A stretch of DNA of 64,000 nucleotides from Escherichia phage muut. The position numbers were made by a program, and so were the translations under genes. Positions 12,026-63,576 of this stretch are shown in pieces (position 1 is the stretch's first letter; every line of letters begins with the position of its first letter). The stretch is taken from sequence record NC_052657.1. One strand, written 5' to 3'. Under the pieces are notes generated by a model. That model saw only the letters and a program-made list of their open reading frames with translations, had not been told where the DNA came from and did no database searches.

Positions 12026-13759
12026 TTAGTCAACCTGGATGGTTCCCATAGTACGAAGAACCTCTACATCAACACGGTTGCGGATATCAGTAAATGTTTC
12101 ATCACGTCCTTCTACTTGTGGTGTAATAACCGTACCATCTCTGAAGATAACTTGTAACTCATTGTCTTCATCTTGGATATCTTTAAAAGAAAGATTATCC
12201 ACAAGAGAAAGTTTACCATTTGTATCCTTAACAACCTTAATAAAACCTTTTGCAGAGCGTTTACCAGGATCAGTTTTAGGCTCCTTACTTACCAAAATTT
12301 CGTGTTCACCGATGATACTACCTGTTGCTTTAACAGCAAAACCAAAAGTATCTCGTGTATTGAACTGATAAGTATAACTACCAACACCAAATACAATATT
12401 GGAAGCTGCAAAACCTTTCTTCTTCAGTCGGCGTAAGATCTCGTGTTCTCGTTCAACAGTAATAGAATCACCATAAATCATACCGATGTGCTGATCAAGA
12501 ACCTTGTAGCCTTTTCGGTTGATAGTACCACCAAACACTTCCCAAAGGATTTGAATAGAACCTACTGCTTCACAATAAGGAATCTCATAAGTTTCATCAA
12601 TACAATCAGCAACACTGCAATCCTGAAGAACATTGTAATACTTATTAACATCAGCCAAATGAACTACTTCAGTGGCTGTAGCAATACCATTATTTAAAAG
12701 GTCTTCATAGTTATCAAAAGATTCAACATTGTATCCTGCAACAACTTTAACCGGATCTCCTGAGTCTGGACGAATAACAAGACGACCATTTCGTGACATA
12801 ATGGACTCTTTCAATTCTACCAGAATGCGAGTCAAGACAGCCCAGTAATCATAAGAATCTGCTACATATGAACAAAAACCTTCTGGAACAATTTCTTCAA
12901 TATAGCGGCGAAGAAACTCTTTCTCTGCTACATAACGAAGCCCATCAACATCATCTTTAAGATGTGGGAAATGTTTCTTCAGATCTTCAACAATAGCTCC
13001 AATGTTAGTCGTTGCTACTGAATGTTCTGTTGCCGGAATAGAACCTGCAACAAACTGATCATAATCAATACCATAATAATCATGCACAGTTTCAATAGCC
13101 AGAATATTATCTGTTCCTGTGAAAGATGCCAAATGAGCGATACCACTCTTATAACCATCTTCGACATTACTTAAACCACGTAGGCTAAAATCATGACACT
13201 GGAAGTTAACGTGATCAATATTATCACACGTTGCCATCGCATATGCCATAGCAATACGCTTATACTGAAAAGCTGCTGTAGCATTAGTCATTGTCTTCCA
13301 AGTTTCATCTGACAATAGTGTTTCCACATAATTAGTTAACCAAAAGAATTTTTCTAAAGTATTATGCACAGTAAACACAGGAACACCAATAGGACACAAA
13401 ACACCTTCTGGCAGAGATCGAACTTCCAGCGGAAGATAACCTAAATCGTGCAATTCTCCCCAACATTCAGCAGAAGGAGCAGAAGCACCTAATGCATTTT
13501 TAGACATACGATAAAATTTATTTACTGCTGCACTACGAGACATTTTAAAGAAGCTGTCCCACATAGTTACAAGGGCATCGGTGACTGCTCGACGAATACC
13601 TAAAACAATCACACCACGTGCTTCACGATCTGCATAGTGTGCAAAGTTTTTATCATTACGAGGAGTTAAATTAGAGAAAATGAGTTTTGTATTTTGGTTG
13701 TACATCTGCTTGTGACCAGGCTTATACCAATCAGTAGCAAAAGGTGCAAAAATATTCAT
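12026..13759 (-). CDS. nadV: nicotinamide phosphoribosyltransferase-family enzyme (NadV/Nampt-like; possibly Namat of NARP1)
   Basis: 577 aa; resembles NadV/Nampt by eye and co-operonic with a Prs-like gene; family membership inferred, not searched. Confidence 0.65.
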   Translation of the reverse strand: MNIFAPFATDWYKPGHKQMYNQNTKLIFSNLTPRNDKNFAHYADREARGVIVLGIRRAVTDALVTMWDSFFKMSRSAAVNKFYRMSKNALGASAPSAECWGELHDLGYLPLEVRSLPEGVLCPIGVPVFTVHNTLEKFFWLTNYVETLLSDETWKTMTNATAAFQYKRIAMAYAMATCDNIDHVNFQCHDFSLRGLSNVEDGYKSGIAHLASFTGTDNILAIETVHDYYGIDYDQFVAGSIPATEHSVATTNIGAIVEDLKKHFPHLKDDVDGLRYVAEKEFLRRYIEEIVPEGFCSYVADSYDYWAVLTRILVELKESIMSRNGRLVIRPDSGDPVKVVAGYNVESFDNYEDLLNNGIATATEVVHLADVNKYYNVLQDCSVADCIDETYEIPYCEAVGSIQILWEVFGGTINRKGYKVLDQHIGMIYGDSITVEREHEILRRLKKKGFAASNIVFGVGSYTYQFNTRDTFGFAVKATGSIIGEHEILVSKEPKTDPGKRSAKGFIKVVKDTNGKLSLVDNLSFKDIQDEDNELQVIFRDGTVITPQVEGRDETFTDIRNRVDVEVLRTMGTIQVD

Positions 13760-13830: not shown

Positions 13831-14724
13831 TTAAAAATTCCACACGTATGGAGATACAATTTGTTGTTGCAAATCTGACTGATTCTTAACAAGAACACCG
13901 GAATCTTCTTGGATGTTATCTTCCCACACATTAAGAGAATGAATGCAGTCAAAGTGCTCACTTAACTCTTTAAGACCTTTAGAAAAGATACCGTGTGTAA
14001 CATATAACTCAATCTTACCTGCGTTACGAGCACGTAGCACTTTAGCCAATTCAATAAAAGTTCTACCGCCGTCACAGATATCATCTACGATCATCAGGTT
14101 ACGCTTATTGAAATCCTGTACAGAAATGTCTGTACGAACAATAGCACCTGTCGCAGTATCTCTAACCTTCTCTGCACAGAACACATCTAAAGACATTTTC
14201 TTAGATAATTTAAATATTTTCTTAAGAGCACCACCATCAGGACTAACAAGAGCAAAATTCTCCATACGTAACTTCCACTTTAAAGTTTCGTAAGCAATCT
14301 CTTCTTGAGGTATTACACAGAGTCTGTCAAACACCGCTGGAGTAACATCACTATGTGGATCAGCAACGATAACACGTGAGAAATTTAATGAATTAATTAT
14401 AGAAGCAAATGCTTTAACTCCGAATGCTTCCCCAGGTTCACACACTCTGTCTTGTCGTGCATATGGCACATACAACATGAGCAAATCAACACAATATGGT
14501 TTATGATATAGCATATTGTCCAATGCATTCTTAGTCATAACCAAAGTCATCAAGTCTTTAGCAGATCTTACTTCTAAAGAGAGTAAGATTCTGTCTGTAG
14601 CATGATTGAAACCTGATAGATTCGTATCTAGTTGAACATGTTGTTCTCCACCAGAGAATGTAAAGACTTTAACGTCTACATCAGTAACATAACAGTTAAC
14701 ACCATGTAGAATACTAACTTTCAT
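13831..14724 (-). CDS. ribose-phosphate pyrophosphokinase-family enzyme (Prs-like; possibly Adps of NARP1)
   Basis: 297 aa; PRPP-binding loop MIVDDICDGGRTF typical of Prs / type I phosphoribosyltransferases; directly upstream of nadV-like gene. Confidence 0.6.
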   Translation of the reverse strand: MKVSILHGVNCYVTDVDVKVFTFSGGEQHVQLDTNLSGFNHATDRILLSLEVRSAKDLMTLVMTKNALDNMLYHKPYCVDLLMLYVPYARQDRVCEPGEAFGVKAFASIINSLNFSRVIVADPHSDVTPAVFDRLCVIPQEEIAYETLKWKLRMENFALVSPDGGALKKIFKLSKKMSLDVFCAEKVRDTATGAIVRTDISVQDFNKRNLMIVDDICDGGRTFIELAKVLRARNAGKIELYVTHGIFSKGLKELSEHFDCIHSLNVWEDNIQEDSGVLVKNQSDLQQQIVSPYVWNF

Positions 14725-14763
14725 TGTTTATCTCCTTAGTTAAGTTAGGACTTTATGTTCTCT

Positions 14764-14792
14764 ACTCTACATACAGATAGATCTAAAGTCAA
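14764..14792 (-). promoter_or_regulatory. sigma70-like promoter for prs-nadV operon
   Basis: On minus strand TTGACT-17-TAGAGT about 40 nt upstream of prs-like start. Confidence 0.45.
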
Positions 14793-14970
14793 TAGATATT
14801 TATTATTTAATTAATAATAAAATTAATAAAGAATCTATTGTTAGTATAGAGCATGTATGTTAGTATTATAAACATAACATAGTGCTATATGTAGACTACT
14901 CAGTTGTCTGTTAGATCATGTATCACAGGATTAGATAACACCCCCTCGCTGCGCTCGGCGTTTTTCGGGG

Positions 14971-14994
14971 GTTAGGGTAGCATACTTTTTTGCG
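14971..14994 (+). promoter_or_regulatory. conserved upstream element TTAGGGTAGCAT-N2-TTTTTT-N-CG (copy 1)
   Basis: Near-identical 24-nt motif recurs in opposite orientation at 55907-55930; both precede the first gene of an operon. Confidence 0.35.
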
Positions 14995-15133
14995 TTTGTC
15001 AACACCTTTTTAGATTATTTTTAAGTACAACCTAAACCTCCTAAAAACGATTGTAACGAGTTTTACTGTGAGGTAAGGTGATTGCATATCTTAAAGGCCA
15101 TTAGCTCGTTACAGAGCCGTATAGGAGGGAATA

Positions 15134-15502
15134 ATGAGGGTCACACGCTACGTTAGAAGTGAAACAATAGATGGAAGCATAATGTATGCTTTCTACGATG
15201 ATAAAACTTTTTGTTCTGCATTCTATGAAGAAGACTTGTCTACGGAATGGCAACAAATCATCTTCTTACTTGACATTTTGAAAAGAAGAGATAACTTTGA
15301 AGGTATTGAGTGGACAGCGGAAAGCAAAGTTATCGTTGCAGGTTTAAGCAAACATGAATTGCTTGACTTAGACTGTAAACTTTGTAATTATCAATTCTCA
15401 AAACGTTTACCATTAGAAAGACAGTTAGGAGTTGAGATTCATGTTGACTTGGGCGATGGAGTATCCTATACTTTCAACAATCATAGTGCTGACATTAATT
15501 AG
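15134..15502 (+). CDS. hypothetical protein (122 aa)
   Basis: First ORF of plus-strand operon; RBS AGGAGGG; no motif recognised. Confidence 0.45.
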   Translation: MRVTRYVRSETIDGSIMYAFYDDKTFCSAFYEEDLSTEWQQIIFLLDILKRRDNFEGIEWTAESKVIVAGLSKHELLDLDCKLCNYQFSKRLPLERQLGVEIHVDLGDGVSYTFNNHSADIN

Positions 15503-17109: not shown

Positions 17110-17259
17110 TATGCATTACTCAGTTTGGTCAGAGCAAGAAGAGGATGAAGGGCGTTTTATCTATAAAGAGGAAGAAAACTGTAACGATATGAGTAATGAT
17201 CTTTTACTTCCTGATTACAGTTTTTTCGCTGATAGACTAAAAGAGTATAGGGAAAATTG
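17110..17259 (+). CDS. hypothetical acidic protein (49 aa)
   Basis: Sub-cutoff ORF filling gap; its stop overlaps next start (TGATG). Confidence 0.3.
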
Positions 17260-44824: not shown

Positions 44825-45567
44825 TGCTAGTATATCAAGAAATTAGTGTAAAAGATGATCAAGACCTGTTTATTATTGGTGATTTACATGGTTGCTTTGA
44901 TTTGTACCAGAAAGGTGTTAATACTTTAGGTATCCGAGATCAAGATGTTGTTGTATCTTTAGGAGATCTTACAGATCGCGGCAAGCAGAATTTTCGTTGT
45001 GTTGTTGAATTCACCAGAAAGCTAAATCGTTATGGTATTCGTGGAAACCATGAAGATATGATGATTAAAGGGTTGCTAGAAGGTGATAGACGATATTACG
45101 AATGTTGGTTTCAGAACGGAGGCCATACAGTTCTAGACGAGTGTGGAGAAGAGGGTGCAACTGCTCTTGCTTTGATGCTAGAAGATTTACCTGTTGTACT
45201 TGTTGTCAATTATCGTAATATGAAACTAGGCTTTATTCACGGTGGTTATCCTTCAGTTTTGGAACATTTACCAGTGACAGAAGTTTTGCCATTTTGTTTG
45301 AATATGAATAAAGAGCAAGTTTCTCGATTCACAGAATCTTTAATGTGGGATCGTGATATGATAGATTGCGCCCTTGAAGGGATTCTTCTTCCTAGAGTTT
45401 CAGGAGTAGATTATGTATTTCACGGGCATTCTTATGTTCCTAAACCTGTAATTAGCAGTAATAGGGTATATATGGATACAGGATCTTGCTTCAATGGTAA
45501 TTTAACCTTTGCATATTTTGATGATACAAATACGTTACAATTTTATTCTACTTTAGAGGAGGACTAA
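44821..45567 (+). CDS. Ser/Thr protein phosphatase (PPP-family metallophosphatase)
   Basis: GDLHG, GDLTDRG, RGNHE motifs. Confidence 0.75.
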   Translation: MMLVYQEISVKDDQDLFIIGDLHGCFDLYQKGVNTLGIRDQDVVVSLGDLTDRGKQNFRCVVEFTRKLNRYGIRGNHEDMMIKGLLEGDRRYYECWFQNGGHTVLDECGEEGATALALMLEDLPVVLVVNYRNMKLGFIHGGYPSVLEHLPVTEVLPFCLNMNKEQVSRFTESLMWDRDMIDCALEGILLPRVSGVDYVFHGHSYVPKPVISSNRVYMDTGSCFNGNLTFAYFDDTNTLQFYSTLEED

Positions 45568-47733: not shown

Positions 47734-48723
47734 ATGAAAGTTTTAAGTCTTTTTGATGGTATGTCAGGAGGAATGCTTGCGCTAAAAAGTGCAGGTATTG
47801 AAGTAGATACATATTACGCTTCAGAATTAGACAAATTTGCCGTAGCTGAAAGCCAAGCAAATTTTCCAGATATTATTCAGTTAGGTGATGTTACAAAATG
47901 GAGAGAATGGGATATCCCGTGGGGAGAAATTGATCTTTTGTTAGGTGGTAGTCCGTGTCAAGGCTTCTCTTCTTCTGGTAAGGGTTTGAACTTTCAAGAT
48001 CCGCGATCTAAGTTATTCTTCGAATATGTTGAAATTCTTGAACATATTAAAAAGTTTAATCCTAATGTTAAGTTCATGCTTGAAAACGTTAAGATGAAAG
48101 TGGAGTGGGAAAACGTGATCACAAGTTACTTAGGTGTTGATCCCGTATTCATTAACTCCGCAGATTTCACGGCACAGAATAGACAACGTTTATACTGGTG
48201 CAACTGGGAAATAAAACCCTGGGAGATTACCAATGAAGTGTTGCAAGATATCATTGAAGATGATAGTATTGTAGACAGAGATAAGGCTTATTGCATAGAT
48301 GCAAATTATGCCAAAGGTGGTAATATAGAACAGTATTTTGAAAAGAGTCGCAGACAACTGGTTTTTTATCCGGCAGCAATATATGGGCGTAGAATTAATG
48401 AAAATGGCAAACGTAGTACATCTAAAACTGATCGTTTGGTACATTGTTTGGAAGTTCAGGACAGTGAAAAAACTCGTTGCCTCACGACTGTGCCTAAAGA
48501 CGTACTATTAGCCTACATTCCACCTGGAAGATATCTAGATGCTTTTGAAAAATTGAGTGAAGGCGTACATTATAGAAAGTTAACGGTTAAAGAGTGTTGC
48601 CGCTTGCAAGGTGTGCCAGATGATTACTTTAAAGTGAGTAGTAACACACAAGCATATAAGATGTTAGGTAACGGTTGGACTATACCTGTCATTGCACATA
48701 TTCTTAAATGTATGGAGGAATAG
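47734..48723 (+). CDS. dcm: DNA (cytosine-5)-methyltransferase
   Basis: Motif I LFDGMSGG, PC motif GGSPCQGFS, ENV motif (FMLENV). Confidence 0.8.
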   Translation: MKVLSLFDGMSGGMLALKSAGIEVDTYYASELDKFAVAESQANFPDIIQLGDVTKWREWDIPWGEIDLLLGGSPCQGFSSSGKGLNFQDPRSKLFFEYVEILEHIKKFNPNVKFMLENVKMKVEWENVITSYLGVDPVFINSADFTAQNRQRLYWCNWEIKPWEITNEVLQDIIEDDSIVDRDKAYCIDANYAKGGNIEQYFEKSRRQLVFYPAAIYGRRINENGKRSTSKTDRLVHCLEVQDSEKTRCLTTVPKDVLLAYIPPGRYLDAFEKLSEGVHYRKLTVKECCRLQGVPDDYFKVSSNTQAYKMLGNGWTIPVIAHILKCMEE

Positions 48724-48848
48724 TGGAAACATTGTGGAAAGGCTGGAAGACTGCTCTGATAGCCTTTATAATTCCATTAACTTTTCTTGGTTGGTGTTTT
48801 TGGGAATTTATCTTTTGGTTAATTTCCCATATACATTGGGGGTAATAT
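48723..48848 (+). CDS. small hydrophobic protein (41 aa)
   Basis: Sub-cutoff ORF, GTG start after GGAGG RBS; one TM helix. Confidence 0.3.
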
Positions 48849-50783: not shown

Positions 50784-51588
50784 AGTCATATTCATAACTG
50801 GTGCAGGACTATCTGTGGATAGCGGTATCCCAGCTTTTAGAACAGATACTTCTTCAGGGAAGGCGTTATGGTCTTCTTATGATCTTTTTGAGGTCTGTGA
50901 CATTTTCAACTTCCGTGACGGTTATCAGCAAGAACAAGGTGTTCTTGATGCTATGGGTGGTTTAGATGCAGAAGGATATAACCTCTACCGTAAAACTCAC
51001 GACTTTTACAATAAACGTCGCGTGGAATTAGAGAAAGTTGACCCGAATCCAGCACATCTTCAGATTGGAGAATGGTTCAAAAAATATGGCCCAGAACGAA
51101 TTATTAACATTACTACTAACGTGGATGACCTCCTTGAACGAGCAGGAGTAGATAGGGAAGAAGTGCTACATGTGCACGGTTTTCTTCCTGAAATTACTTT
51201 TCAAAGAAAAGCTGGACAACCTACAATTGTAAAAGATGTTGGTTATCAAGCCATAGATGTAGATGACTACCATTATGTAAAACCTAATGTAATTTTCTTT
51301 GGGGAAGCTGCTCCACTTTACACGGATATGTATCATATTTTTGATACTTTGACCATGCAAGATTTGGTTGTTGTAGTAGGATGTTCAAACCAAGTTATCA
51401 ATTTTAATTGGGAATTATTCCCTGCACTTAATATGGGTACAAAAATGATCGTTGTTAACCCAGGAATTAATTACGAAGAAACTCTTCTTTACGAAGACAG
51501 AGGAGTTTTTGTTTATCGAGAAAAGGCCGCAGATGCTTTTAGCAATCCTGCTTTCATAAAAATGATAGAAGATCATTTGACTAAGTAA
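50773..51588 (+). CDS. Sir2-family NAD-dependent deacylase / ADP-ribosyltransferase
   Basis: NAD-binding signature GAGLSVDSGIPAFR near N-terminus; 271 aa. Confidence 0.7.
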   Translation: MPRRVIFITGAGLSVDSGIPAFRTDTSSGKALWSSYDLFEVCDIFNFRDGYQQEQGVLDAMGGLDAEGYNLYRKTHDFYNKRRVELEKVDPNPAHLQIGEWFKKYGPERIINITTNVDDLLERAGVDREEVLHVHGFLPEITFQRKAGQPTIVKDVGYQAIDVDDYHYVKPNVIFFGEAAPLYTDMYHIFDTLTMQDLVVVVGCSNQVINFNWELFPALNMGTKMIVVNPGINYEETLLYEDRGVFVYREKAADAFSNPAFIKMIEDHLTK

Positions 51589-61035: not shown

Positions 61036-61284
61036 TCACCAAACCGTTACTACTCCGGTACGTAGCGTCTCTTCATGTCCCCAAATATCCGCTTCAATTG
61101 TAATTACAACCCACTCCGTGTTCCACTGAATACCAGTGATCTCTGTGAGATGTGCAGCTTCACGTTGTAGTGAGGCTGTGTCTGTAAGAGACGCACGTAA
61201 AGCATCCAATTCTTGTTCAATTTTGGTACGTTCTTCTTCGGTAATCGGTGTACCAACACGATCAAAGGTAAAAATATCTAACAT
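61036..61284 (-). CDS. hypothetical protein (82 aa)
   Basis: Track ORF. Confidence 0.4.
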   Translation of the reverse strand: MLDIFTFDRVGTPITEEERTKIEQELDALRASLTDTASLQREAAHLTEITGIQWNTEWVVITIEADIWGHEETLRTGVVTVW

Positions 61285-61293
61285 ACTTCCCTC

Positions 61294-61503
61294 CTAATTA
61301 TAATTCACATAGCGCCCACAATCCTGTTCAAGAAATTTTTCAGCATCCCTTTGGTGCTTTAACACGATGCACTGTTCTTTTTTAGCTTCACTTTCACGAG
61401 CTTCTCTTGCCATATACTCACCTAAACGAATGATACTAGAGAATAACACGTATGCAAGAATAAGACAAACAGTGATTGCACAGAAAGTTTTAAACTTAAC
61501 CAT
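61294..61503 (-). CDS. small membrane protein (about 69 aa), paralog of 56282-56506
   Basis: Start reset to ATG 61503 (GGAGGA RBS); TM helix plus shared C-terminal block. Confidence 0.45.
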   Translation of the reverse strand: MVKFKTFCAITVCLILAYVLFSSIIRLGEYMAREARESEAKKEQCIVLKHQRDAEKFLEQDCGRYVNYN

Positions 61504-61864
61504 TGTATTCCTCCATATCACGAATACGATCAATCACCCATTGTACACGTTCTTTATTAAGGTGTGCAATGCCTAGTTCTGTTTCCGTAAAGTAGTGCGA
61601 GAAATCCGTATTAAACGGATGTAAATGGTTCAAACCCGCTTTCTTAAATTGTTCCTTCATTTCCTCTCGTACAGAGGATTGGAGCTTTGATACATTCTCA
61701 ACATCTTTTATCCAAGCAATATTGTACAAGAAGTCTACAAGACACGTGCAAAGACCATAATGCTTTTTGCTAAAGTTTGTATCTTCTTGTTCTAACCACC
61801 ACTCATAAAATTGTAGCAAATAGGGGCTGCTTTTCATGCTACACACTTTACTATTCTCTTGCAT
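61496..61864 (-). CDS. hypothetical protein (122 aa), LLQFY/PFN paralog family
   Basis: Shares blocks with 60002-60586 and 63647-63997. Confidence 0.45.
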   Translation of the reverse strand: MQENSKVCSMKSSPYLLQFYEWWLEQEDTNFSKKHYGLCTCLVDFLYNIAWIKDVENVSKLQSSVREEMKEQFKKAGLNHLHPFNTDFSHYFTETELGIAHLNKERVQWVIDRIRDMEEYNG

Positions 61865-61873
61865 GACTTCTCC

Positions 61874-62173
61874 TTAATACCAGTCTACGATCACTGAATC
61901 TACAAAGCCCTCTTTGGTGTTTAAAGCATACACCTTACTAAGCCCATGCTCTCGTAGTGCTTCCATAGCAAGATCAATCAAATCAACTTGTCGTTTCTTT
62001 GCTTGTTCATTTTTTGGATAGTCATCCAAACCGAAAACAGATGGTTTAAATGCTTTGGAGTATTTGCCAGTCTTAGCCTGATCATAACAGTCCTGAATAA
62101 TTTCCTCAATAGGAAACCATAAACCTTCTCCACTTTGCTTTGCAATACAGCGCAGTTTTTCTGTAATAGTCAT
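61874..62173 (-). CDS. hypothetical protein (99 aa)
   Basis: Track ORF. Confidence 0.4.
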   Translation of the reverse strand: MTITEKLRCIAKQSGEGLWFPIEEIIQDCYDQAKTGKYSKAFKPSVFGLDDYPKNEQAKKRQVDLIDLAMEALREHGLSKVYALNTKEGFVDSVIVDWY

Positions 62174-62382
62174 TCTTCCTCTCCTTTCAATTTACACTCA
62201 AAGATACCATTCTTAATGTTATCTGTCAAATAAAGGCTATCTTCTATCTCTTCTTTTGTATACACATAAGCCTCCTTTTCCACGTCTGTCAGACCTTGCA
62301 TCGGAGCTAGTAGCCACCAACCCCGCCAGTCAAACATAGGAGACTTATCAGATACACGAAGAATGTATCTGTCATTACACAT
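62170..62382 (-). CDS. hypothetical protein (70 aa)
   Basis: Track ORF. Confidence 0.4.
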   Translation of the reverse strand: MCNDRYILRVSDKSPMFDWRGWWLLAPMQGLTDVEKEAYVYTKEEIEDSLYLTDNIKNGIFECKLKGEEE

Positions 62383-62385
62383 ATA

Positions 62386-62838
62386 TTATACGATGTTCAC
62401 ACTAATATCTGCAACACCAACAAGAGAATAGACTTCAACTACACTCTGTGTACGATCCAGCTTGTAACGTTTCGCCTCTTTTTCAACTTCCTCACGGGAG
62501 ATGGTTTCCATGATCGGAACTCCATCAACTACAAGCAGGTATTTTTCTTCGTGTTTACTTTTTGGTGCTTCCTCTAAGACTTCTACAAAATACTCAAACT
62601 CACTTTTTACGAGCAACGTGTAACACTGAAGAAAGTCTCCTTCATTTTGAGCGATAATTTCTTGTTCTCCTGCTAAGGATTGCAAAGCAGTGACACCATA
62701 CCAATCATCCACATCTAATACACGAAAATAGGAATCACCTAAAAAAGAAGCAATCCTGCTATTGCACTCAGACATATTAGCAAACTTACGGATATAAGAT
62801 GGGTTTTTAAAACGATACACTTTACCAATTTCAAACAT
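62386..62838 (-). CDS. hypothetical protein (150 aa)
   Basis: Track ORF with AAGGAG RBS. Confidence 0.45.
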   Translation of the reverse strand: MFEIGKVYRFKNPSYIRKFANMSECNSRIASFLGDSYFRVLDVDDWYGVTALQSLAGEQEIIAQNEGDFLQCYTLLVKSEFEYFVEVLEEAPKSKHEEKYLLVVDGVPIMETISREEVEKEAKRYKLDRTQSVVEVYSLVGVADISVNIV

Positions 62839-62859
62839 TACACAACTCCTTATTGTTCA

Positions 62860-63027
62860 AGAGTAAAAGGAATGATTTCACCATAGCTGTATTGCATGGC
62901 ATTCACTTCTGCTTCTGCACGTTGTGCTAGTTCTAATGTTGCACAGATTTTATAAGGTACAGTGCTGCATTGGCTCCAGCCTGGGGGTATTCTTTGTTAC
63001 TAAGTACACAGTAGTTTGTTTATCCAT
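62860..63027 (-). pseudogene. small gene interrupted by +1 frame change at a C5 homopolymer
   Basis: ATG 63027 with AGAGGA RBS opens a 25-codon frame; a 44-codon frame continues in +1 register; junction at CCCCC 62984-62988. Confidence 0.35.
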
Positions 63028-63041
63028 CTTCTTTTCCTCTT

Positions 63042-63257
63042 TTAAACAGTATATTCGTGTGGAAGGAAAACATAGTCTTCTCCTTCAACAACATCAACTA
63101 CTTCCCACTTCCAGCCAGGTACTTGGCTCATTGTCTTGAATGACACATAAGCAACTCCGCTGTAAGCGATATCGGCATCTAACATAAGAGGGAAAGCAAC
63201 GTGTGTCAACCCCAGATAACCACAATTATTTTCAATACACACCTGAATGCTTTTCAT
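63042..63257 (-). CDS. hypothetical protein (about 71 aa)
   Basis: Start reset to internal ATG 63257 (GGAG RBS) to remove overlap. Confidence 0.4.
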   Translation of the reverse strand: MKSIQVCIENNCGYLGLTHVAFPLMLDADIAYSGVAYVSFKTMSQVPGWKWEVVDVVEGEDYVFLPHEYTV

Positions 63258-63258
63258 G

Positions 63259-63576
63259 TTATGCTCCATTAAAGACGGGGCGCGTAGCGTTACGTTCATC
63301 ATCAACTGTAATAAGGTTTTTCATAACCATAACACCCTGAATATAGCCTAGCCAACGATGGCGTTTGGTTTCAGACATACCATTACACCCATCCTGAATT
63401 TCATTCAACATCCACAGTAAGTGGGAAACACCTGTTTCACTAGTATCTGGATCTTCTACAGAACTAAGCATAGTTTCATAGCGTTCACAAATTTCTGGGT
63501 AGAATTCATAGTCCTGTTGTACATCTCGCATTTCTCGAATGGAGTGAGGATCAATATACAAAGCTAAGGTTCTCAT
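63259..63576 (-). CDS. hypothetical protein (105 aa)
   Basis: Track ORF. Confidence 0.4.
   Translation of the reverse strand: MRTLALYIDPHSIREMRDVQQDYEFYPEICERYETMLSSVEDPDTSETGVSHLLWMLNEIQDGCNGMSETKRHRWLGYIQGVMVMKNLITVDDERNATRPVFNGA

What the first reader, a model, noticed from the sequence alone, without database searches (positions are those of the whole stretch)
62860..63027. Small gene broken by a +1 frame change at a C5 homopolymer
A well-initiated 25-codon frame ends prematurely while a 44-codon open frame continues in the +1 register; removing one C from CCCCC (62984-62988) would yield a single 58-aa protein. This is a sequencing indel, a recent pseudogene, or a frameshift site.
Basis: seen in the sequence. 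Interest (0 to 1): 0.35.

Follow-up and report, generated by a model that had tools for sequence, protein, structure and literature searches.

The report
One-base insertion breaks small phage gene
A single extra C in a run of Cs splits a conserved 58-amino-acid phage gene of unknown function that is intact in nearly all related phages; this is an ordinary recent mutation or a sequencing slip, although the broken site is one where ribosomes could sometimes slip back into frame.

Summary
On the minus strand, an ATG at 63027 with a good Shine-Dalgarno opens a 25-codon frame that stops at 62952-62950. The next frame stays open to the TAA at 62852-62850.

The window is a phi92/phAPEC8-like coliphage. 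All 60 listed GenBank relatives and all 18 distinct metagenome or isolate contigs inspected have C4 and an intact gene. Four of those contigs carry an allele identical to the window's except for the extra C.

The window has no other mid-gene frameshift in 112 compared genes, so it is not a noisy assembly. One unrelated IMG/VR contig has the same C5 on a different haplotype, so the change has been seen twice.

Most likely this is a genuine, very recent insertion in a dispensable early gene. An assembly error cannot be excluded without reads. A conserved programmed frameshift is not supported.

The new context, ACC-CCC-AGG-C, is intrinsically prone to +1 slippage, so low-level rescue of the normal protein is possible but untested. 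Interest is low.

The parts
62850..63027 (-). Frame-disrupted copy of the Phi92_gp002 / phrog_24303 gene. It is 178 nt here; relatives have 177 nt encoding 58 aa.
   Evidence: The copy is identical to the alleles in L016-L018 except for one extra C.
62983..62987 (-). C5 homopolymer on the coding strand (G5 on the + strand). Relatives have C4. This is the site of the one-base insertion.
62950..63027 (-). Zero-frame ORF as it stands: 25 codons plus TAA (MDKQTTVYLVTKNTP + out-of-frame RLEPMQHCTL).
62850..62981 (-). Distal 43 codons plus stop in the +1 register, encoding the conserved C-terminal three quarters (GWSQCSTVPYKICATLELAQRAEAEVNAMQYSYGEIIPFTLEQ). Its only in-frame start codons would give a peptide of 18 aa or less.
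   Evidence: starts only at +1-frame codons 31 and 34; conservation
62979..62988 (-). Potential +1 slippage context created by the insertion: ACC-CCC-AGG-C. A P-site tRNA-Pro could re-pair from CCC to CCA. [quoted passage not shown] The +1 codon is GGC.
   Evidence: Sequence; codon usage; PMC4519876 section 2.2; PMC5009743. The slippage itself is inferred, not shown.
63036..63039 (-). Shine-Dalgarno core (GAGG) of the gene, 8 nt upstream of the ATG.
62386..62838 (-). Downstream gene gp003 (150 aa). It has its own AAGGAG Shine-Dalgarno overlapping the gp002 stop codon, and it is intact.
8800..8875 (-). Phage-encoded tRNA-Pro(UGG) with A at position 37. It could decode the CCC at the site. There is no phage tRNA-Arg.

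Best explanation
The window carries a genuine, very recent one-base insertion (C4 to C5) in a small, conserved, probably dispensable early gene (Phi92_gp002 / phrog_24303, function unknown) of a phi92/phAPEC8-like coliphage. Standard translation now makes a 25-aa truncated peptide, and the conserved distal 43 codons have no initiation site of their own. The allele is therefore a null or a strong hypomorph. By inference only, the insertion creates ACC-CCC-AGG-C. There, a P-site tRNA-Pro(UGG) waiting for the rare AGG codon can re-pair from CCC to CCA and continue with GGC. A small fraction of ribosomes may then produce exactly the wild-type 58-aa protein. Shown: the insertion, the intact orthologues, the cleanness of the assembly, and the recurrence of C5. 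Inferred: that the base is real in the DNA, that the gene is dispensable, and that any slippage occurs.
For: (1) Removing one C restores a full-length match to phrog_24303 and to the 177-nt CDS annotated in phi92, PATM, inny, KMB37, VEcB and arall.
(2) All 60 listed GenBank records align 77 nt to the 78-nt query, which means C4. All 18 distinct metagenome and isolate contigs checked have C4 and a 58-aa gene call.
(3) L016-L018 are identical to the window over 210 nt except for the C. L019 differs by 2 substitutions plus this gap in 1970 nt. The change is therefore on a terminal branch.
(4) Assembly quality: about 60 kb aligned to VEcB and to arall shows about 1000 substitutions. Among the 112 covered CDSs, gp002 is the only mid-gene frameshift. 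There is no excess of differences at Dcm or Dam motifs.
(5) The same C5 occurs in IMGVR_UViG_3300045988_074297. That contig has a different 5' end, a different upstream gene and a different flanking SNP, differs from the window by 1.8% over 3.2 kb, and is itself free of other coding indels over 4.4 kb.
(6) Other sporadic lesions exist in this gene cluster: a 1-nt deletion in gp002 in ERZ16268272 and a 1-nt deletion in gp004 of phage AV123. This fits non-essential early genes.
(7) For leakiness: native tRNA-Pro(UGG) shifts +1 from a stalled P site best on CCC-A (PMC4519876). Slow A-site codons promote +1 shifts, and Ty1's CUU_AGG_C alone gives about 40% in yeast (PMC5009743). AGG and CCC are rare in this phage (3.3 and 1.0 per 1000 codons). 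The phage has a tRNA-Pro(UGG) and no tRNA-Arg.
Against: No reads are available, so the extra base cannot be verified. A homopolymer is the classic place for a length error, and the allele is otherwise identical to intact ones, which is also what an error would look like. The gene is strongly conserved, with only in-frame indel variants among 13 protein clusters. That argues it has a function, so a null allele should be selected against. For the slippage part: there is no SD-like stimulator upstream, no RNA structure (z = 0.26), no measurement for CCC-AGG-C in vivo, and the in vitro data come from a second-codon context.
Confidence: 0.6

Rival explanations
1. Sequencing or assembly artefact. 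The phage DNA really has C4 and an intact gene, and the fifth C is a homopolymer-length miscall in the consensus.
For: The change is a single base in a homopolymer. The allele is otherwise identical to intact alleles in four other contigs. More than 75 relatives have C4. The run lies in CCCCAGG, which contains a Dcm site (CCAGG) next to a near-palindrome. A context-specific systematic error could therefore recur in two assemblies.
Against: The window shows no other frame-breaking indel in 112 CDSs over about 60 kb, and its other 1-nt indels are intergenic or compensated. Of 71 CCWGG sites, this is the only one with a gap. The second C5 contig is also clean. Two identical random errors in two clean assemblies are unlikely. 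Five bases is short for a run-length error on short-read platforms (established knowledge).
Confidence: 0.28
2. A selected, programmed +1 ribosomal frameshift, or a 'savior indel' kept together with compensatory frameshifting. Under this view C5 is maintained because it tunes gp002 dosage, and the full-length protein is made by slippage at CCC-AGG-C.
For: The site combines the best +1 re-pairing context for tRNA-Pro(UGG), CCC-A, with a rare A-site codon and an AGG-C 3' context like Ty1's. The product would be identical to wild type. C5 arose on two different haplotypes. The phage tRNA-Pro(UGG) has A37 rather than the frame-keeping G37.
Against: The arrangement is not conserved: there are 2 carriers against more than 75 intact orthologues, and both carriers sit on terminal branches. 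No stimulatory SD-like element or RNA structure is present. No further C5-derived ORF was found among about 15 billion proteins. Two of the three lesions seen in this gene falling at its only G/C run of 4 fits a mutational hotspot without any selection.
Confidence: 0.05
3. The site is a slippery tract for RNA polymerase (transcriptional slippage) or a phase-variable tract, so that C4 and C5 interconvert at high frequency.
For: It is a homopolymer, and the same length change was seen twice.
Against: The run has only 4-5 bases. Known transcriptional-slippage and phase-variable tracts are typically 7 or more bases long (established knowledge; reviewed in PMC5009743). 26 of 27 distinct fetched relatives and all 60 listed GenBank records have exactly C4.
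Confidence: 0.02
4. Two genuine separate short genes (25 aa and about 44 aa).
For: None beyond the raw ORF layout.
Against: The distal frame has no usable start; only GTG or ATG starts giving 18 aa or less are present. Every orthologue is a single ORF. The out-of-frame tail RLEPMQHCTL matches nothing.
Confidence: 0.01

Closest known systems
Phi92_gp002 (CBY99430.1) / phrog_24303, a 58-aa hypothetical early protein of Justusliebigvirus and Phapecoctavirus phages (Stephanstirmvirinae)
   Same: Same locus, between the gp001 or G377_gp242-like gene and gp003. After removal of one C, the DNA is 96-100% identical and the protein matches the profile over its full length.
   Different: The window's copy has C5 instead of C4, so the reading frame is broken after codon 15.
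Ty1 / ABP140 +1 frameshift heptamer CUU_AGG_C (yeast)
   Same: The mutant site CCC_AGG_C shares the logic. The P-site tRNA can re-pair one base 3' (CCC to CCA). [quoted passage not shown] The +1 codon is GGC.
   Different: The organism and the P-site codon differ. The site is not conserved or selected here. No efficiency has been measured. It arose by a recent insertion rather than being the ancestral gene structure.
tRNA-Pro-mediated +1 slippage at CCC-N in E. coli (Gamper et al., PMC4519876), and CCC_UGA shift-prone genes (cited in PMC2790909)
   Same: A CCC codon in the P site followed by A, next to a slowly decoded A-site codon. CCC-A gave the fastest and highest +1 shift for native tRNA-Pro(UGG).
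   Different: Those data come from in vitro stalled complexes at the second codon, or from sites with stop codons in the A site. Here the site is codon 15 with a sense codon in the A site.
'Savior indel' plus compensatory frameshifting (herpes simplex virus thymidine kinase G-run; PMC5009743)
   Same: A one-base homopolymer indel in a viral gene whose loss could be partly offset by low-level ribosomal frameshifting.
   Different: There is no evidence here of a selective advantage of the indel or of any trans-frame product.

Membership tests
Phi92_gp002 / phrog_24303 gene family | Full-length sequence match to the family profile | tested here: met
   With one C removed, the protein matches positions 1-58 of 58 with E 7.8e-45. 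It is 83-98% identical to 13 protein clusters.
Phi92_gp002 / phrog_24303 gene family | Conserved position immediately upstream of gp003, with the stop codon overlapping gp003's Shine-Dalgarno | tested here: met
Phi92_gp002 / phrog_24303 gene family | Uninterrupted reading frame of 52-64 codons | tested here: not met
   In the window, the frame is broken after codon 15 by the C5 run. The window copy is a disrupted allele of the family.
Programmed +1 ribosomal frameshift site | P-site codon whose tRNA can re-pair in the +1 frame | tested here: met
   The re-pairing is CCC to CCA. PMC4519876 shows CCC-A is the best context for tRNA-Pro(UGG).
Programmed +1 ribosomal frameshift site | Slow-to-decode zero-frame A-site codon (a stop or a rare codon) | tested here: met
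   AGG occurs 3.3 times per 1000 codons in 122 phage CDSs. No phage tRNA-Arg is present. The rarity of AGG and its tRNA in E. coli rests on established knowledge.
Programmed +1 ribosomal frameshift site | Stimulatory element (an SD-like sequence a few nt upstream, or mRNA structure) | tested here: not met
   The upstream sequence is AAAGAAUA. The fold z-score is 0.26.
Programmed +1 ribosomal frameshift site | Conservation of the two-frame arrangement among orthologues | tested here: not met
   There are 2 carriers against more than 75 single-frame orthologues.
Programmed +1 ribosomal frameshift site | Detection of the trans-frame protein product | not testable with these tools
   This needs a reporter assay or mass spectrometry.
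Recent frameshift mutation (pseudogene or hypomorph) | A single indel relative to otherwise near-identical intact orthologues | tested here: met
Recent frameshift mutation (pseudogene or hypomorph) | The extra base is present in the DNA molecule (read support) | not testable with these tools
   No reads are available. Indirect support comes from the clean assembly and the second carrier.
Homopolymer sequencing artefact | Other homopolymer-length errors that break genes in the same assembly | tested here: not met
   None of the other 111 CDSs is broken mid-gene.
Homopolymer sequencing artefact | Errors enriched at methylation motifs (CCWGG, GATC) | tested here: not met
   There is 1 gap at 71 CCWGG sites, and it is the finding itself. 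There is no marked enrichment of mismatches.
Transcriptional slippage or phase-variable tract | Long homopolymer (about 7 or more bases) with frequent length variation among isolates | tested here: not met
   The run is 4-5 bases and is C4 in all but two sequences.

The most novel reading that the evidence does not exclude
The C4-to-C5 insertion is a tolerated, recurrent hypomorphic allele because the sequence it creates (ACC-CCC-AGG-C) is a spontaneous bacterial counterpart of the Ty1 CUU-AGG-C +1 shift site. tRNA-Pro(UGG) would slip from CCC to CCA while the ribosome waits for the rare AGG codon, restoring an exactly wild-type gp002 at reduced dosage. The phage's own A37-bearing copy, which cannot carry m1G37, might contribute. 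That would make this a natural 'indel plus compensatory frameshifting' pair in a coliphage, arising independently in two lineages.
Probability: 0.1. Interest if true: 0.55.

Novelty: already known. Interest (0 to 1): 0.15.

Why it matters
Mainly for annotation. The locus should be labelled as a frame-disrupted copy of the Phi92_gp002 / phrog_24303 gene, and flagged for read-level verification, rather than as two tiny ORFs. If the insertion is real, it shows that this conserved early gene can be lost, or strongly reduced, in circulating phages. If the site turns out to be leaky, it would be a neat natural example of an indel that creates its own +1 compensatory shift site, and it would give a reason to test phage-encoded tRNA-Pro lacking G37. 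Neither possibility changes current understanding on present evidence.

Tried and rejected
1. Function of gp002. There was no Pfam hit, no NCBIfam hit and no PDB sequence hit. The AlphaFold model is only moderate (pLDDT 69.7, beta-beta-alpha-beta). Foldseek against the PDB gave nothing below E = 2. The function remains unknown.

2. Dcm/Dam-motif systematic-error hypothesis. No enrichment was found.

3. More C5 carriers.
- The exact-pattern scan of IMG/VR found one.
- A gapped pattern accepting 3-6 bases found two C4 contigs among metagenome contigs and nothing among genome contigs.
- A search for the aberrant 49-aa zero-frame product of the other carrier found nothing.

4. The window's own source was not found in any collection. 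The nearest sequences are L020 (100% over 1748 nt, but it ends 50 nt before the run) and L019.

5. Stimulators of frameshifting. There is no RNA structure and no SD-like element.

6. Promoter and terminator scans of 61-64 kb. Promoter-like hits were at chance level, and the few terminator-like hits were uninformative.

7. In-frame CCC-AGG avoidance. Only 0.06 occurrences would be expected, so zero observed is uninformative.

8. Apparent loss of gp004 in several contigs turned out to be differences in gene calling, except in AV123.

9. Measured efficiencies for CCC-P-site constructs in FSscan appear only in figures and could not be read.

Full report
**What is there.** Genes at this end of the window run on the minus strand.
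- An ATG at 63027 is preceded by AGAGGA with an 8-nt spacer. It opens the frame MDKQTTVYLVTKNTPRLEPMQHCTL, which ends at TAA 62952-62950 (25 codons).
- In the next register the sequence is open from 62996 to the TAA at 62852-62850.
- The run of five Cs (five Gs on the + strand) is at 62983-62987.
- Deleting one C, or skipping A62982, gives a single 58-aa protein: MDKQTTVYLVTKNTPGWSQCSTVPYKICATLELAQRAEAEVNAMQYSYGEIIPFTLEQ.
- The distal register has no usable start codon. Its only starts, a GTG and an ATG, would give 18 residues or fewer.

**What the gene is.** The window is a phi92/phAPEC8-like coliphage (Stephanstirmvirinae, Justusliebigvirus-like). It is 97-99% identical to many complete genomes.
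- At this position phi92, PATM, inny, KMB37, VEcB and arall all annotate one short CDS of 177 nt (171 nt in arall), named Phi92_gp002. It lies just upstream of gp003, and its stop codon overlaps gp003's Shine-Dalgarno.
- The repaired window protein matches phrog_24303 (unknown function) over all 58 positions with E 7.8e-45.
- There was no match in Pfam, NCBIfam or PDB sequences.
- A moderate-confidence model (pLDDT 69.7; a small beta-beta-alpha-beta unit) has no significant structural neighbour.
- The family is narrow. It has 13 clusters at 90% identity, all 52-64 aa. They differ by substitutions and by in-frame 6-nt indels, which is the signature of a translated gene.

**How the window differs.** In alignment, the only difference that matters is one extra C.
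- All 60 listed GenBank phage records align 77 bases to the 78-base query. That means C4, and none matches better than 97.4%.
- Two metagenome contigs found with a run-length-tolerant pattern have C4, and there were no hits among bacterial genome contigs.
- I used the flanking genes as exact-match anchors. This gave 16 further contig look-ups from ENA, Logan, JGI and NCBI. All of them carry a 58-aa gene call and C4.
- Four of these carry a gp002 allele identical to the window's over 210 nt, except for the C. These are GCA_014709535.1, ERZ28619779, ERR2091384 and, apart from one intergenic base, ERZ27280826.
- One of them differs from the window by only two substitutions plus this gap in 1970 nt.

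The insertion therefore lies on a terminal branch. It is either very recent or not real.

**Is it an artefact?** I compared the whole window with two complete relatives, VEcB and arall.
- Each comparison aligned about 60 kb, with roughly 1000 substitutions and 31-39 indel events.
- I mapped the indels onto the 112 VEcB CDSs covered by the alignment. gp002 is the only gene with a mid-gene frameshift.
- Of the other three flagged cases, two sit on stop codons. The third is in a 132-nt VEcB-only ORF where arall agrees with the window.
- The remaining 1-2-nt indels are intergenic or lie in divergent patches where they compensate each other.
- The run sits in CCCCAGG, which contains a Dcm site. I therefore tested for motif-linked error. 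Of 71 CCWGG sites, this is the only one with a gap, and mismatches are not notably enriched at CCWGG or GATC.

The assembly is therefore clean. This argues against a noisy platform, but it cannot exclude a single consensus error.

**A second carrier.** An exact-pattern scan of IMG/VR found one contig with C5, IMGVR_UViG_3300045988_074297 (97 kb). It is not the window:
- It has the phi92-type 5' end (ATGAATAAAGAA) and the phi92-type upstream gene.
- It has C rather than T at the nearby synonymous SNP.
- It differs from the window by 1.8% over 3.2 kb.

Each C5 carrier has a C4 twin haplotype among the relatives. The two insertions therefore look independent, or else they share at most about 65 nt. 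Over the 4.4 kb that can be compared with VEcB, that contig has no other coding indel. A search for its aberrant 49-aa zero-frame product found no further carriers.

Other sporadic lesions exist nearby:
- A different 1-nt deletion (GCC to GC) in gp002 in ERZ16268272 scaffold_2137.
- A 1-nt deletion in gp004 of phage AV123.

The C4 run is the only G/C homopolymer of four or more bases in the gene; the other two such runs are A4 and T4. It is therefore a plausible local hotspot for a one-base insertion.

**Most likely mechanism.** I judge a genuine, recent insertion in a dispensable early gene the best explanation (about 0.6), and a consensus error next (about 0.28). As written, the gene makes a 25-aa fragment: 15 native residues plus 10 out-of-frame residues. 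gp003 keeps its own AAGGAG and should be unaffected.

One feature is worth noting. The insertion creates ACC-CCC-AGG-C.
- Published in vitro work shows that native E. coli tRNA-Pro(UGG), stalled in the P site next to an empty A site, shifts +1 fastest and furthest on CCC-A, ahead of CCC-G, CCC-U and CCC-C (PMC4519876, section 2.2).
- Slow 'hungry' A-site codons favour +1 shifts. The yeast Ty1 site CUU_AGG_C alone gives about 40% (PMC5009743).
- CCC-TGA and CCC-CGG-C were flagged as shift-prone in E. coli (PMC2790909).
- Here AGG is rare (3.3 per 1000 codons in 122 phage CDSs) and CCC is rarer still (1.0 per 1000).
- The phage supplies a tRNA-Pro(UGG) but no tRNA-Arg.
- A +1 slip would yield exactly the wild-type protein.

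Against a programmed role:
- There is no SD-like stimulator and no RNA structure (z = 0.26).
- The arrangement is not conserved. There are two carriers among more than 75 orthologues.

So low-level phenotypic leakiness is plausible but untested, and a selected frameshift is unlikely (about 0.05). Transcriptional slippage or phase variation is unlikely for a 5-base run. The reading as two separate genes is refuted by the orthologues.

**Comparison with known things and verdict.** The locus is a frame-disrupted allele of a known, uncharacterised phage gene family. It works like an ordinary frameshift mutation, possibly a leaky one. It is not a member of the class of programmed frameshift sites, because two defining features (conservation and a stimulator) were tested and not met. 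Novelty: already known kind. Interest is low (0.15). The most novel reading still open is a recurrent hypomorphic indel rescued by +1 slippage at a Ty1-like CCC-AGG-C site. I put that at about 0.1 probability, and it would be moderately interesting if true.

Noticed in passing
window 8800-8875 (-); identical copy in VEcB (L010 about 3471-3546); variant in arall (L012 4185-4259): The phage-encoded tRNA-Pro(UGG) has A at position 37 (anticodon loop C-U-UGG-A-C; U-U-UGG-A-U in arall). Cellular tRNA-Pro has G37, which TrmD methylates to m1G37 to restrain +1 frameshifting. A phage tRNA-Pro that cannot carry m1G37 might be more slip-prone.
   Followed up: partly
L015 about 1629 (ENA ERZ16268272 scaffold_2137); protein P0013: A different frameshift allele of the same gene. 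A 1-nt deletion (GCC to GC) about 80 nt downstream of the C-run gives a 64-aa product with an out-of-frame tail that overlaps gp003.
   Followed up: yes
L030 about 1875-2086 (Escherichia phage AV123, OR352953.1): The gp004 homologue has a 1-nt deletion that breaks the frame after ...DWR. Other loci where gp004 was 'not called' are intact and differ only in gene calling.
   Followed up: yes
window 63259-63576 (-): The gene two positions upstream of gp002 exists in two in-frame length forms among close relatives: 105 aa (window, inny, KKP_3264) and 152 aa (+141 nt; PATM and many others).
   Followed up: partly
window about 63028-63060, versus L003 and L008: There are two alternative upstream neighbourhoods of gp002. 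In one, a 71-aa G377_gp242-like gene is followed by a 15-nt spacer (window, PATM, inny). In the other, phi92 gp001 overlaps the gp002 start by 8 nt (phi92, VEcB, the IMG/VR C5 contig). The mosaic junction lies exactly at the gp002 ATG.
   Followed up: partly
window about 51020-51240 (Sir2-like gene, VEcB 12187-12999): A short, highly divergent patch has seven small indels relative to VEcB that sum to a multiple of three. It looks like a recombined or mosaic segment inside an otherwise 98%-identical gene.
   Followed up: no
window about 17130-17240 (VEcB 45014-45160): A second divergent patch with compensating indels (net +3) lies in a 147-nt hypothetical gene.
   Followed up: no
window 41580 and 7717: Intergenic C-runs vary in length among relatives (C5 in the window, C7 in VEcB). 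Homopolymer length polymorphism is therefore real in this phage group, but it is otherwise confined to non-coding DNA.
   Followed up: partly
window about 47740-48730 (homologue of VEcB 14328-15317): The phage encodes a cytosine methyltransferase of unknown specificity. This is relevant to any methylation-linked sequencing bias. The coordinates are estimated from the alignment offset.
   Followed up: no
GenBank MG065639, MG065645, MG065656, MG065689, MG065650: Records labelled 'Campylobacter phage' with host C. jejuni are about 97% identical to these coliphages over the region. The host labels look doubtful.
   Followed up: no
L020 (Logan ERR2241941_60032), matching window 61186-62933: A 2.3-kb contig is 100% identical to the window but ends 50 nt before the C-run. 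It is the only exact match found, and its sample may be related to the window's source. Its reads could settle C4 versus C5.
   Followed up: no
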